From the NCBI RefSeq assembly GCF_006345805.1, contig NC_043023.1:8866001-8930000 (forward strand): DNA of 64,000 nt, read 5' to 3'. The notes below the pieces were generated by a model. That model did not search any database. It was not told the DNA's origin and was given only the letters and a program-made list of their open reading frames with translations. The position numbers and the translations under genes are program-made. This DNA is from Octopus sinensis (lineage: Eukaryota). Within the stretch, counting starts at the first letter, position 1; each line of letters starts with the position of its first letter. Positions 5,718 to 58,197 of the stretch are shown piece after piece.

Positions 5718-5789
5718 AACTTTTTTAAATTGGTGAGACCCTCGAACGATCCATGTTCAATAATCGCGATTTTATTATTGGCTAGATTT
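5718..5789 (-). CDS. LRR exon type A (72 nt): NLANNKIAIIEHGSFEGLTNLKK(L)
   Basis: ttacag|A AAT CTA GCC AAT AAT AAA ATC ... AAA AAG TT|gtaagt; open frame; canonical splice sites. Confidence 0.92.
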
Positions 5790-6206
5790 CTGTAAGTTGG
5801 AAGAGAATTGGTGAGAAATGGTATAAAAATGATTAGTCACGAAATTTTAAATACGCATATGCCTAATCAACTGGATGTAGATGTAGAAGAAAAGGAAGTA
5901 GAAGTGCAAAAATTAGATGAAGATGAAGATAATGAGGAGTGAAGGTTAGAAAGATATTGATAATCATGTGTTGTGAGGAAGTTGACTGATGGTGAAGATG
6001 ATGCTAATGATGATATCGTTTATGATGATGATGATGAGATGATAAGGAGTGTGGTGTTAAGCACGTTAATGGTCGCATTCATGGCCATGATGCTTTTGAC
6101 GACAATGAAATATAAGAAGTACAAAATAGGATTTGAAGCGGAGATTACAAGAAAAATATGAAGTGAAATATACATATATATATTGTGAAGGATATATATA
6201 TATATA

Positions 6207-6547
6207 TGTCGGTCCCATAGGGGATAATGCTACTGTTGTTTATAGCCCCGGGATGACATCTCCACTAGCTGCCAAAACGACACACCACTTGTGTCTTACT
6301 TGTATGCGCGAACTAATATCATGGTTCCCGTCTCTGGTTTTACGTAATAAACACAGGCCCTGATTTCTGGGTAGTAACTCGTCATCGAAACACGGGTATG
6401 TGTGTATCACGTAAGGCTAGAGATGGCAATGTTTTCTTTCCTTTCGCAAATACTAATCAGACACAGATAGCGTGTCATTAGCCAAGTGAAGAAGATGTCC
6501 TCCTGGGGCTATAAAAACCAGAAGCATCGTTCCCTATGGGACTGATA
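6207..6547. mobile_element. MITE with about 55-bp TIRs; truncated copies at about 10171-10480 and 58617-58928
   Basis: gtcggtcccataggggataatgc...gacatc versus gatgtc...gcatcgttccctatgggactgat. Confidence 0.7.
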
Positions 6548-6637
6548 CGTTTACGTGGTAAATATACTTTACGATTCCGTGATACTACTGTTTATGTCTC
6601 ACTCACAGATTTAATATTGCTTATTTATATACATAAA

Positions 6638-6935
6638 TATAGTGGTTAGGGCAGCGGACTCGCGGTTGTAGGATCGCGGTTTCGATTCCCAGACCGGGTG
6701 TTGTCAGTGTTTATTGAGCGAAGACACCCAAAGCTCCACGAGGCTCCGACAGAGGGTGGTGACCATCCCTGCTGTACTACTTCGCCACAACTTTCTCTCA
6801 CTCTTTCTTCTGTTGGCCTGCTCGCTTAGCCAGCGGGGTGGAGTAGCTTGAAGGCTAAAACAATGCAAAGCGCATTGTGACCAGCGATATGTAGCAAAAT
6901 CTGATAGCCTGGCCGGTCACGGTGATCACGGTGAT
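6638..6935 (+). mobile_element. tRNA-derived SINE
   Basis: A box tagtggttagg, B box gtttcgattcc, tandem cacggtgat tail running into a TA repeat. Confidence 0.75.
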
Positions 6936-7401
6936 ATATATATATATATATATATATATACATATATATATATATATATTATATATATATATATATATAT
7001 ATATATATATATATATATACACATATATATATATATAAAGGGACAGGCAACAGGTTGCTTAGCCACATACCGAAAAATTAAAAATAGCAGTCAAAAACTG
7101 TTTATCTCTGTTTTCTACTATCAGGGTGTGCATGAGTATTGAAAAACTTACAAAAATCGATTTCAGGTGTGTATGCGATCCATAAAGCCGTGGGAACGTG
7201 CATTTGCAAAAATCGTTTTTCTTGGAATAGAAAAAAGTCTATCTTTATTTCTTCTTTAGCTAGTGTCTGAAATTTGGGTTAAATCAGTGTTTCTCAAAGG
7301 GACAAATTTTTTGAAACACTTTGGTTTAAAATGTTTGGCACCTCAGCACTGTCCATGGAATGGGGGGCGTTGTATGTATATTATATATATATATATATAT
7401 A

Positions 7402-54400: not shown

Positions 54401-54806
54401 TTCCGCAGGATGTTTCGGTCGTTTTCCCTTTGATAAATGTAGCTTTTGCTCATTTATCGAGGTAAAATTACAACGTGATATCATCACAGAATTGTTTAAT
54501 ATCTCCTGCCCAAGACGAAACATTGAAGGAATATATATTTATCCACACATTTCAGGCATAAATATACATATGACTATATACGCACTTTTCACAATATACC
54601 AAACAGTGATGTAGAACACAAAGACTTATGTTCACGCACATCGTCACACACAAACACGCTCAACTCAGATACATATATATAGAGAGAGAGAGATAATGTG
54701 AGTTAGGGAAGGGCAAATGAAGGTTAAGAAAGAAAGATGGAAAGATATTAAATTTGAGGAAATATATACTCAGGAATACAGTATGAACAAGACTGGTTCA
54801 ACTTAC

Positions 54807-54878
54807 ATCTGTTCTAATTTCGGAAGATTTGCAAACGATCCATTTTCAATTTTCTCGATTGCATTACGGGATAGATCC
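54807..54878 (-). CDS. LRR exon type C (72 nt): DLSRNAIEKIENGSFANLPKLEQ(I)
   Basis: tttcag|G GAT CTA TCC CGT AAT GCA ATC GAG ... GAA CAG AT|gtaagt. Confidence 0.92.
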
Positions 54879-56631
54879 CTGAAAGATAATTCAAGAAGAA
54901 AAAACATAGAAGTGATTAGTCATATATTTCAAATATTATATCCAATGAATTAGCTGCTGAAATAGAAGAAAAATAAGTAGAAGTGAGACATTTTGGTGAA
55001 GACGATTATGAAAATGATAACTGAAGATTATGAAGATAACAATGAAGATGTATGGCATTGTGTTAAATGATGATGAAAGCGATAATTATTATGATGAGGG
55101 CATTGATGGTGACGGACTTGGTAGTGATGAGGTTGTTTCGGTCTGCTGGCATTGCATGTGTGGTTTAAGATTATGACTGATAAGGATGGTGATGATGATG
55201 ATGGTGATGATGACGATGATCATCATGACTATGATAATGATGACCACTACAAGGACGCAGATGATGATTATGATAACAATATTTACTAATGGTGCTCTTA
55301 ATATTTGGAATGATGATGATGAGGAGGATGACGCTGATATACAAAGTTGAAACTATAACAAAAGAGAAGGATGAGAATAGGAATAGAATTAACGACGAGC
55401 AGTTATTGATAAATGAGATAAAAAGGGTAAAGAAGACTAAACTAGAACTGGAGACATGTATATATCTATATATCTATCTATCCATCTATCTATCTATCCA
55501 TCTATCTATCCATCTATCTATCTATTCATCTATCTATCTATCTACCTACCTATCTATCTATCTATCACTTTACCAATATATCTATCAATCGCCAGACAGA
55601 TTGGTAAACACATACACCCATATACAATATATATATATGTATATATTTGTGTGTGTGTCTATATATATATATATATATATGTGTGTGTGTGCGGGGGGGG
55701 GTGAGGTGAGTATGTAACACGTTTGAACATGTACTTTTTTCTGTAATATGACAATGGGCATGCTAGATCCTTTATTCGAACCAATCGAGCCCAGCATTAT
55801 TTATTTGGTGAAAGACTAGCACTTATTCTCTCGGTATCCTTTGCCGAACCACTAAGTTACTGTGTGTGTAACACCAACATTGGTTATTTGGTGATCTTGA
55901 GGGAACACAAATATATACTTAAATCTGTCTATATTTGTGTGTCTGAGTTTGTGCTAAAATAATATTAAATTTCATAGATCCGAACAAAATCAAAACCATT
56001 AATTCTATTTTTCCCTTTCCTTAAAACTATTAAGGCCATGATATGAGAGAGGTTTGGCTGTTATTTCCAGCAAACTGAAAAACCACACTGTTTTGTTCAA
56101 CTGGCTCATAAAAAAACTAAAAGACGAACACACGTATATGAAAGTACGTATGCGTGTGTGGGTGCGTGTGTATGTGTCTGTGTGTCTTCTCAGATCTCCG
56201 ACATCCTCCATCCACATGCACTCAATTTTGATATGTAGATACCAACGGTATCAGGGCGTGTATAAGTCTTGGAAAAATTACAAGAATCGATTCCAGATGA
56301 GAATGCGATCGATAAAGCCGTGGGAAATCGTTTTTCTTTGGTTGCACAATCGACAATATGGCGCTGATAGGGGTTGCTTCCCTTAACACCAAGCATGCAT
56401 ATTTCATACACAGTCCATCAATTTTCTATTTTCTTTTTCAACTACTGTTGAGTGACAAACAAATTTGCCAAACTCATTTAGTTACCTCCCTTTACAGTCT
56501 GAGGTGAAGCATCCGTCTTGGACGTAATCCGGTGTCCCTGCATGGATATACTCCTTGAAGTAGTTACTCTACAGTCGAACTTATTATTTTCATTTATTAT
56601 GAATGGACAAACCCCAAAAAAATTTTTTTAG

Positions 56632-57013
56632 TCTATTATATAAAATCCGTTCTGTCTGTATGTGTGTGTGTGTGTCTTCTAGGATCTTGGGCATCCTCCA
56701 TCCGATTGCGCTCAAAATAGATATGAAGATACCGACACTATGAGGGCGTGCATAAATCTTGAAAAAATTACAAAAATCGATTCTAGGTAAGAATGCGATC
56801 GAAAAAGCCGTGGGAACGTGTAGTTGTAAAATCGTTTTTCTTGGAATTGAGAATACGTCTATCTTTATTTCTTCTTCTGCTGGTGTCTCAACTTTAGATA
56901 AATCAGTGTTTCTCAAAGAGAAGACGTATGGGACGGTCAGACAAGTTGTTTGAGAAAATTTGGTTTAAATGTTTGACAACTTAGCACCGTTCATTTGACG
57001 GGGTATTTTGTGT
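56632..57013 (+). mobile_element. Non-autonomous Helitron-like element; related pieces at about 7120-7375, 28505-28720, 31199-31405, 56170-56400
   Basis: 5' tctattatataaaatccgttctgtctgt(tg)n; 3' hairpin ccgttcatttgacgg. Confidence 0.55.
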
Positions 57014-58125
57014 ATATATATATATATATATTTATATATATATATATATATATATATAATATATATATATATATATATATATATATATATGTATATATAC
57101 ATATATACGTCTATATATATATATTTATGTTTGTGTATATATCTGTGAACATGTGTATATATATTTGCGTGTGTATATATAGTATATATATATATACGTT
57201 TGTGACACATATTTACATATATATGTATGTGAGCATGTGTATGACTATAAATTGTGTTGTGGTTGTGTATGTGTGTGTGTGTGTGCGTGTGTGTTCTTGT
57301 GCGTGTGTGTGTGTGAGAGAGAGAGAGAGTGAGAGAGAGAGAGAGAGAGAGAGAGAGAGAGAGAGAGAGAGTCTGCATGTTTAAATCTGCCTCTCTGCCT
57401 GCAATTACAAAAATGTTATTGAGTGCAACGGAATTCAGTTTACAATTCAGATTCGTCATATTTTTTATTCATGTATAGATATATGTATGTGTATATAAGC
57501 ATTGTAACTATGTGTTTGCATCTATGTTACCAACCTTAAGTGTTGCTCCCACTACATCTGTATACTGAAGATTTTATCAATGTTAATATAATAGAAACAA
57601 TTGTAGGCTTTATAATGTGAAATCTAATAAACGCAACTGTCTCTATATGTATCGTTTGTTGTCAAAATGTCTTTGTTTCTGTCCGAATTCTGCCATAGGA
57701 TATTTCAATTTATTTATCATACAGGAGGAATTCACCTGGGCGTGTATTCTACTTCTTATTACTGATGCCCAATTGTCGAATATTGTTAGATCTGAATCTC
57801 TGGATCCCCTTGGTCGTCCTACATGGCTTTCCCCGTATTGGGGAATTTTGTCTTTAATCGTTAATTGTTAATTGTTACGTTGTTCACATTAATTTATATA
57901 AATCACATCACAAACGTAAACCACAAACACTCATATCCTTAATCATTTTCATACCCACGCACGCACACACACACACACACACACACACACACACACACAC
58001 ATACACACACACAGACACCGTGAGGGTCTGTTAGAGATGATGAAAGAGAGAGCGAAGATAGAAGGGAAGACATTATATGTAGAAAGATACAATTAGATTA
58101 ATAATATCAGGAAGATCAAACTTGC

Positions 58126-58197
58126 AACTTTTTTAAATTGGTGAGACCTTCGAACGATCCATGTTTAATAATCGCGATTTCATTATTGGCTAGATAT
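58126..58197 (-). CDS. LRR exon type A with GC donor (72 nt): YLANNEIAIIKHGSFEGLTNLKK(L)
   Basis: ttacag|A TAT CTA GCC AAT AAT GAA ATC ... AAA AAG TT|gcaagt; open frame; non-canonical GC donor. Confidence 0.8.

What the first reader, a model, noticed from the sequence alone, without database searches (positions are those of the whole stretch)
5718..58197. Every splice junction rebuilds a binding strand, so all cassettes are freely interchangeable
All exons are symmetric phase 2-2. They end in TT/AT/GT and start with A/G, so any pairing gives L/I/M/V and never a stop or frameshift. The intron falls inside LxxL|xLxxN, so each beta-strand combines the variable tail of one exon with the variable head of the next. 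Skipping or mutually exclusive choice would create new surfaces combinatorially. The phase pattern is common in LRR genes; its combination with junction-flanking hypervariability is the notable part. Combinatorial use is inference.
Basis: inference. Interest (0 to 1): 0.7.

Follow-up and report, generated by a model that had tools for sequence, protein, structure and literature searches.

The report
Octopus receptor's DNA-shuffled LRR exons
These look-alike exons build the outer arm of an octopus cell-surface receptor (an adhesion GPCR) and do join in frame in any order, as in many repeat genes, but the transcript pieces seen mostly follow gene order, so the variety at the predicted binding face likely comes from mutation and swapping in the DNA rather than from mix-and-match splicing.

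Summary
The anatomy is real. Nine of 11 LRR cassettes in 5718-58197 are intact 72-nt phase-2 exons, and the intron splits the central Leu of each beta-strand. The junction rule is not notable: every codon with T in the middle is F/L/I/M/V. The exons belong to an octopus LRR adhesion GPCR, one of five assembled copies holding 5-22 intact cassettes each. The six codons around the strand change 2.6-8.5 times faster than flanking introns, and head and tail variants are recombined between exon copies in the DNA. RNA-like contigs from two runs gave 11 exon joints. Nine match genomic neighbours, two are not in this genome, and none falls in a skip-only class pair. Variable exons are joined to each other, which argues against mutually exclusive choice. 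Combinatorial splicing is unsupported but not excluded, because contigs drop rare forms. The family (Ritschard 2019), the exon layout (Hoss 2019) and DNA-level LRR exon shuffling (Ectocarpus, Tetrahymena) are published, and this scan noted the family before on other DNA of this genome.

The parts
58126..58197 (-). LRR exon, 72 nt, phase 2-2, GC donor (class KIAI)
54807..54878 (-). LRR exon, 72 nt, ends AT (class AIVK)
48344..48415 (-). LRR exon, 72 nt, ends GT (class AIVK)
34169..34240 (-). LRR exon, 72 nt (class AIVK)
29626..29696 (-). LRR exon, 71 nt as assembled (frameshift; pseudo-exon or assembly error)
22111..22182 (-). LRR exon, 72 nt (class KIST)
15789..15860 (-). LRR exon, 72 nt (class KIST)
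13534..13605 (-). LRR exon, 72 nt (class KIST); its type is spliced in RNA-like contigs
11488..11559 (-). LRR exon, 72 nt (class KISK); its type is spliced in RNA-like contigs
9598..9662 (-). LRR exon whose last bases and donor are deleted as assembled; intact in copies D and E, and its type is spliced
5718..5789 (-). LRR exon, 72 nt (class KIAI); its type is spliced in RNA-like contigs
4444..4515 (-). last variable LRR exon; acceptor damaged as assembled, intact in copies D and E; its type is spliced to 476-544
476..544 (-). constant last LRR exon, 69 nt, phase 2-2, present in all five gene copies; followed outside the window by the LRR cap, Cys-rich, GPS and 7TM exons
59936..59978 (-). 3' half of an LRR exon (best match class KISK) beside a LINE-like fragment; the same remnant occurs 5 times in the cluster

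Best explanation
The exons encode the leucine-rich arm of an octopus adhesion GPCR; they are likely spliced mostly in genomic order into one long solenoid, and its predicted binding face likely diversifies over generations through selected point mutations plus unequal crossing-over and gene conversion among near-identical exon-intron units. Shown: the gene architecture, the frame compatibility, the excess of change at strand-flanking codons, the differing exon number and order among young gene copies, and head/tail variants in all four combinations. Inferred: constitutive splicing as the main route, selection as the cause of the excess, germline recombination as the shuffler, and binding of a fast-changing ligand (foreign or self) that then signals through the GPS/7TM part. 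Frame symmetry matters because it lets DNA-level gains, losses and swaps survive; a crossover in an intron makes a new tail-head strand without any alternative splicing.
For: Gene identity: downstream exons give GPS and 7TM sequence, and the TM5-7 exon is 99% identical to proteins named O. sinensis adhesion GPCR; Pfam finds LRR_8, GPS and 7tm_2 above cut-off in 4 of 4 full-length relatives. Copy variation: copies A-E hold 9, 5, 12, 15 and 22 intact cassettes in different class orders, with constant regions 1.4-3.4% diverged from copy C. Diversification: pN at codons 1, 3, 4, 6, 22, 23 is 0.25-0.41 against intron p 0.07-0.09 and other-codon pN 0.04-0.08 in 4 of 4 classes; changes per site on trees are 6.1, 2.6, 8.5 and 2.9 times the intron rate; in 45 nearest-flank pairs 156 of 810 such bases differ, against 780 of 26271 intron bases and 93 of 2430 other exon bases. 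Recombination: head-tail site pairs fail the four-gamete test in 12 of 12 (KISK) and 8 of 8 (KIST) cases, tail-tail pairs in 0 of 6 each. Splicing: 9 of 11 joints match genomic neighbours and 0 of 11 are skip-only class pairs; donors are GTAAGT/GTAAGC in 61 of 63 exons.
Against: The RNA evidence is thin: two runs of one study, RNA only by guess, assembled contigs that drop rare forms, a source not known to be this genome's individual or species, and the AIVK class was not in the laid stretch. 2 of 11 joints are not neighbours in G000; one fits a skip of 13534-13605 with 1 mismatch, against 5 for the best neighbours. Skips inside one class are hard to tell from the order in another copy. The PHI-like test was significant for KISK (p 0.0005) and AIVK (0.0055) but not KIAI (0.078) or KIST (1.0), and 2 of 3 head-head pairs in KISK are also incompatible, so repeated mutation contributes. 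The six variable codons were taken from the LRR consensus after the alignments had been seen. Mis-assembled repeats could mimic recombination, and two of copies C, D, E could be alleles (1.4-1.8% apart). The window's own copy is frameshifted as assembled in exon 1 and one constant exon, so it may be a pseudogene. No ligand was tested.
Confidence: 0.75

Rival explanations
1. Combinatorial exon skipping: each gene makes many LRR chains per tissue or cell, so new tail-head strands arise at the RNA level.
For: All 81 pairings in the window are in frame; forward pairing in copy C could give 49 distinct strands against 11 in genomic order. One joint fits a skip in the window's copy and another is not in G000. 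Two exons of the cluster have a GC donor. LRR exon skipping is real in human NLRP3 (PMC6642158, section 6 and passages) and LRR isoforms are reported for crab VLR2 (PMC10045472, passages).
Against: 0 of 11 joints in skip-only class pairs and 9 of 11 match neighbours; the skip-like joint has the order of the O. vulgaris model P0014; near-uniform consensus donors.
Confidence: 0.12
2. Mutually exclusive, Dscam-like choice of one cassette per message.
For: A tandem array of near-identical, equal-length exons between constant exons.
Against: 9 of the 11 joints link one variable exon to another; no 10-mer complementary to the first or last intron is shared across exon classes among the top hits in copies C and E; cassettes lie at least 1258 bases apart.
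Confidence: 0.02
3. Somatic DNA rearrangement or conversion builds cell-specific LRR arms (VLR-like repertoire on a GPCR).
For: Recombined head/tail variants and broken spare cassettes exist; 2 of 11 joints are absent from G000. The same hypothesis was raised, untested, for Ectocarpus (PMC3341825, passages).
Against: The germline-type array already has complete spliceable cassettes; nothing here separates somatic from inherited events; the joints that differ can come from another individual or species.
Confidence: 0.05
4. The window's copy is a decaying duplicate and the array is neutral repeat turnover.
For: Frameshifts in exon 1 and a constant exon and 4 broken cassettes of 16 in this copy; public annotation here is in fragments (P0001, P0015).
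Against: Excess amino-acid change confined to strand-flanking codons while core codons are nearly fixed; the small indels differ between copies C and D and look like sequencing errors (inference); the family is spliced in RNA-like runs.
Confidence: 0.06

Closest known systems
Octopus-specific adhesion GPCR expansion, group 3 (Ritschard et al. 2019, PMC6408891; passages read)
   Same: GPS plus class B 7TM receptors of octopuses, LRRs in 5 of 22 sequences, co-localised copies, signs of positive selection.
   Different: The passages read do not describe the one-LRR-per-exon arrays, strand-flanking hypervariability or head/tail recombination; placement in group 3 was not tested by a tree here and the supplements were not read.
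Exon-modular LRR genes of human, NLRP3 exon 5 skipping (Hoss et al. 2019, PMC6642158; section 6 and passages read)
   Same: Frame-preserving LRR exons, 24-residue blocks among the common sizes, exon border at a fixed place inside the beta-sheet.
   Different: There skipping is shown and gives two main isoforms, not a repertoire; here no clear skip was seen and the exons are young duplicates.
Ectocarpus ROCO LRR exon shuffling (Zambounis et al. 2012, PMC3341825; passages read)
   Same: One LRR per 72-nt exon, young gene duplicates that differ mainly in LRR number and order (13 versus 17), inactivated exons in introns, diversifying selection.
   Different: Cytoplasmic GTPases of a brown alga, with inverted spare exons; here an extracellular arm on a GPCR, and all cassettes of a gene lie on one strand.
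Tetrahymena 90-bp exon LRR genes (PMC6564038; passages read)
   Same: Arrays of equal-length LRR exons with phase-2 introns and a junction amino acid, varied by unequal crossing-over.
   Different: 90-bp exons in thousands of genes of a ciliate; here 72-nt exons in a small cluster with a GPCR body.
Molluscan LU-domain GPCRs (Paramonov et al. 2026, PMC13719153; abstract and passages read)
   Same: GPCRs with a three-finger domain in the ectodomain are reported in molluscs; this gene has a Cys-rich exon ending in a CC..NLCN motif.
   Different: The LU assignment was not confirmed here: no Pfam hit and low model confidence in that part.

Membership tests
Adhesion GPCR | Secretin-type 7TM domain | tested here: met
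   PF00002 above cut-off in 4 of 4 relatives; the TM exons of the window's gene map in order
Adhesion GPCR | GPS motif with His-Leu-Thr cleavage consensus (consensus recalled) | tested here: met
   PF01825 in 4 of 4 relatives; the GPS exon of this gene reads CSCNHLTSF
Adhesion GPCR | Open frame from a signal peptide to the C-terminus in this copy | tested here: inconclusive
   Exon 1 is open in copies B and E, frameshifted in C and D as assembled; one constant exon of C lacks a base
Adhesion GPCR | Autoproteolysis and G-protein signalling | not testable with these tools
   needs expression and assay
Octopus group 3 adhesion GPCRs (Ritschard 2019) | Falls in that clade on a class B tree | not tested
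   resemblance in domains and octopus-only hits (12 of 12) only
Dscam-type mutually exclusive array | One variable exon per message | tested here: not met
   9 of 11 joints link two variable exons
Dscam-type mutually exclusive array | Docking and selector sequences shared by all cassettes | tested here: not met
   top complementary 10-mers were each confined to one exon class in copies C and E; a crude scan without mismatches or G-U pairs
Agnathan VLR | Incomplete germline gene filled somatically from flanking cassettes (definition recalled) | tested here: not met
   cassettes are complete exons inside the gene with splice sites, and are spliced
Agnathan VLR | Cell-specific somatic assembly | not testable with these tools
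   needs single-cell or multi-tissue long DNA reads
DNA-level LRR exon shuffling (Ectocarpus ROCO type) | One LRR per equal-length frame-preserving exon | tested here: met
   63 of 76 cassettes intact at 72 nt, phase 2-2
DNA-level LRR exon shuffling (Ectocarpus ROCO type) | Young duplicates differ in LRR number and order | tested here: met
   5 to 22 intact cassettes, different class orders, constant parts 1.4-3.4% apart
DNA-level LRR exon shuffling (Ectocarpus ROCO type) | Diversifying change at exposed strand residues | tested here: met
   (counting methods, no codon-model test)
DNA-level LRR exon shuffling (Ectocarpus ROCO type) | Inverted spare exons on the non-coding strand | tested here: not met
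   all scored cassettes in each of the five arrays lie on the gene's strand

The most novel reading that the evidence does not exclude
Octopuses carry a VLR-like recognition repertoire wired straight to a G-protein-coupled receptor: on top of inherited shuffling, rare exon skipping or somatic conversion gives single cells different beta-strand surfaces on the LRR arm.
Probability: 0.1. Interest if true: 0.8.

Novelty: new member of a known kind. Interest (0 to 1): 0.3.

Why it matters
The locus has the marks of a recognition protein under pressure to vary, on a receptor class better known for adhesion and wiring. It gives a small, testable cluster for asking what octopus skin, gill or nerve receptors recognise. 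The junction-codon rule itself carries no information about alternative splicing.

Tried and rejected
1) Junction rule as a sign of design for interchange: rejected, it follows from the code and from one ancestral exon. 2) Docking/selector scan: nothing shared across classes. 3) First read-laying with four runs (X1, X2, X3, X5) was swamped by repeats and showed one exon joint among 15 listed of 210 rows; its 'goes back' joint 11559->5718 is the genomic order of copies D and E, not scrambling. 4) No holder on record as RNA was listed; X2 and X3 are RNA by guess. 5) The AlphaFold model of P0014 is usable only for the LRR arm and parts of the middle (mean pLDDT 48.8; residues 691-1179 under 50); the fold search gave only generic typical-class LRRs such as LRRTM2, LRIG1, LINGO-1 and LGR4. 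6) PHI-like test not significant for KIAI and KIST. 7) Literature: five searches; the one for octopus + adhesion G protein-coupled + LRR + exon from 2020 gave 0 papers. Subscription journals and supplements were not seen. 8) Earlier scan notes by place (near) and by sequence gave nothing; a word search for splicing terms gave only unrelated genes.
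Full report
Observation. The minus strand of 5718-58197 holds 11 LRR cassettes. Nine are intact 72-nt exons in phase 2-2 and two are broken as assembled. Their ends (TT 7, GT 1, AT 1) and starts (A 5, G 4) give L, V, I or M in 81 of 81 ordered pairs. One has a GC donor. Two more broken copies (4444-4515, 59936-59978) and a diverged 69-nt last LRR (476-544) lie outside the range. In an AlphaFold model of a named O. vulgaris orthologue (P0014; ten-residue pLDDT means 71-96 over residues 1-250) each three-residue strand is centred on the split Leu, with one neighbour from each exon. 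That these neighbours face the ligand rests on the general LRR consensus, not on a call.

Is the junction rule surprising? No. All 16 codons with T in the middle are F, L, I, M or V, so a conserved core Leu cut after its second base can give no stop and no frameshift whatever follows. The rule holds in 63 of 63 intact exons of the cluster and in 11 of 11 intact exons of a more diverged array on contig C30. Human LRR genes also have frame-preserving exons with the border fixed in the beta-sheet (PMC6642158, section 6), and Tetrahymena LRR arrays have phase-2 junction codons (PMC6564038, passages).

What the gene is. The window is G000:C27:8866001-8930000. Exons downstream of the window give an LRR cap, a Cys-rich exon, a GPS motif and seven TM helices. 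The TM5-7 exon is 99% identical to proteins named O. sinensis adhesion GPCR, and all 12 hits are octopus proteins. Pfam finds LRR, GPS and 7tm_2 in 4 of 4 full-length relatives. A signal-peptide-like and LRR N-cap exon lies upstream, open in copies B and E and frameshifted in the window's copy and copy D as assembled. This fits the octopus-specific adhesion GPCR expansion of Ritschard et al. (PMC6408891, passages); I did not test the clade by a tree.

The cluster. About 1.13 Mb of C27 was scanned. Five assembled gene copies (A-E; the window is C) carry 76 cassettes scoring 14 bits or more, 63 intact and 13 broken; intact counts are 9, 5, 12, 15 and 22, in four sequence classes and different orders. 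Weaker hits, among them the constant last LRRs, were left out of this count. Constant regions differ from C by 1.4% (D), 1.7% (E) and 3.3-3.4% (A, B), so two of C, D, E could be alleles. O. vulgaris models P0014 and P0017 resemble the 3' part of E and copy A, with some cassettes gained, lost or altered (compared by eye; they are predictions).

Hypervariability. Codons 1, 3, 4, 6, 22 and 23 of the exon flank the strand. Their pN is 0.25-0.41 against 0.07-0.09 for flanking introns and 0.04-0.08 for other codons, in 4 of 4 classes. Parsimony changes at their first two positions run 6.1, 2.6, 8.5 and 2.9 times the intron rate (binomial p 2e-31 to 0.003). In 45 nearest-flank pairs 19% of these bases differ, against 3.0% of intron and 3.8% of other exon bases. 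The codon set came from the LRR consensus but was not chosen blind, recombination inflates tree counts, and codons 19-20 also vary.

Shuffling in the DNA. In class KISK two head variants and two multi-base tail variants occur in all four combinations: 12 of 12 head-tail site pairs are incompatible, 0 of 6 tail-tail pairs. KIST gives 8 of 8 and 0 of 6. A PHI-like permutation test was significant for KISK and AIVK, not for KIAI or KIST, and 2 of 3 head-head pairs in KISK are also incompatible. Gene conversion or unequal crossing-over is the simplest reading; repeated mutation and mis-assembly remain possible.

Splicing. Two runs, RNA by guess and from one study, were laid on window 400-13700; several unique intron bins have no cover. 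Of 12 rows in the joint table 8 are exon-exon and 4 are repeats; the insert table adds two joints and splits one, giving 11. Ten were rebuilt and compared with all neighbour pairs: 9 fit neighbours as well as any free pair; one fits neighbours with 5 mismatches and a free pair with 1, which in the window's copy would be a skip of 13534-13605, but the same order stands in P0014. The eleventh joins two KIST exons with a head variant that none of the five KIST exons of G000 has. None of the 11 falls in the five testable skip-only class pairs, which make up 41 of 166 forward pairs (rough chance 0.044). Nine of 11 join two variable exons. Two X2 joints share one depth value, which suggests one contig over three exons (inference). 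Donors are GTAAGT or GTAAGC in 61 of 63 exons, and no docking-like 10-mer is shared across classes.

Mechanism. Most likely (0.75) the cassettes are read in order into one solenoid, and the family explores binding surfaces by selected substitutions plus DNA-level gain, loss and exchange of frame-compatible units. This works like the Ectocarpus ROCO case (PMC3341825, passages) but on a GPCR, and without inverted spare exons. Combinatorial skipping (0.12), somatic rearrangement (0.05), neutral decay (0.06) and mutually exclusive choice (0.02) are the rivals. The ligand is unknown; a fast-changing foreign or self ligand is inferred.

Novelty. The family, the exon layout and the shuffling mode are each in print, and earlier notes of this scan describe the same family on other DNA of this genome. 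Verdict: new member of a known kind, interest 0.3.

Noticed in passing
G000:C27:8953505 (minus) and 9000950 (plus): Copies C and D start head to head about 47 kb apart with an assembly gap at 8955637; their constant regions are 1.4% apart, so this is a young inverted duplication or two alleles assembled side by side.
   Followed up: partly
window 59936-61170; C27 8358466, 8395689, 8683116, 9293580: The same half-exon, whose 5' half is replaced next to a LINE-like fragment in the window, is carried five times in four gene copies, a marker of an old event copied with the units.
   Followed up: partly
G000:C30:11860001-11883000 (L119, L117, L118): A separate, more diverged array with the same 72-nt phase-2 layout: 11 intact and 3 broken cassettes scored, possibly more upstream.
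   Followed up: partly
G000:C12407, C11413, C11289 (L108-L116): Three small contigs hold nearly the same five-cassette array, not seen on the scanned part of C27: a sixth gene or haplotype, perhaps assembled three times.
   Followed up: no
No Pfam hit here.
   Followed up: partly
G000:C27:8766895-8771381 (minus) and 9172622-9177093 (plus): Exons of another, more distant adhesion GPCR (64-75% identical) sit beyond the ends of copies C and D, inside the duplicated block.
   Followed up: no
G000:C27:9331861-9349065: Five 4.3-kb tandem units in copy E with flanks about 99% alike; one exon (9336161) differs from its neighbour at 7 of 72 bases against 4 of 600 flank bases, which looks like an exon-limited conversion.
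   Followed up: partly
window 1899-2973 and 60097-61170: Two copies of a LINE-like reverse-transcriptase fragment in opposite orientation, 91-92% alike, bracket most of the array.
   Followed up: no
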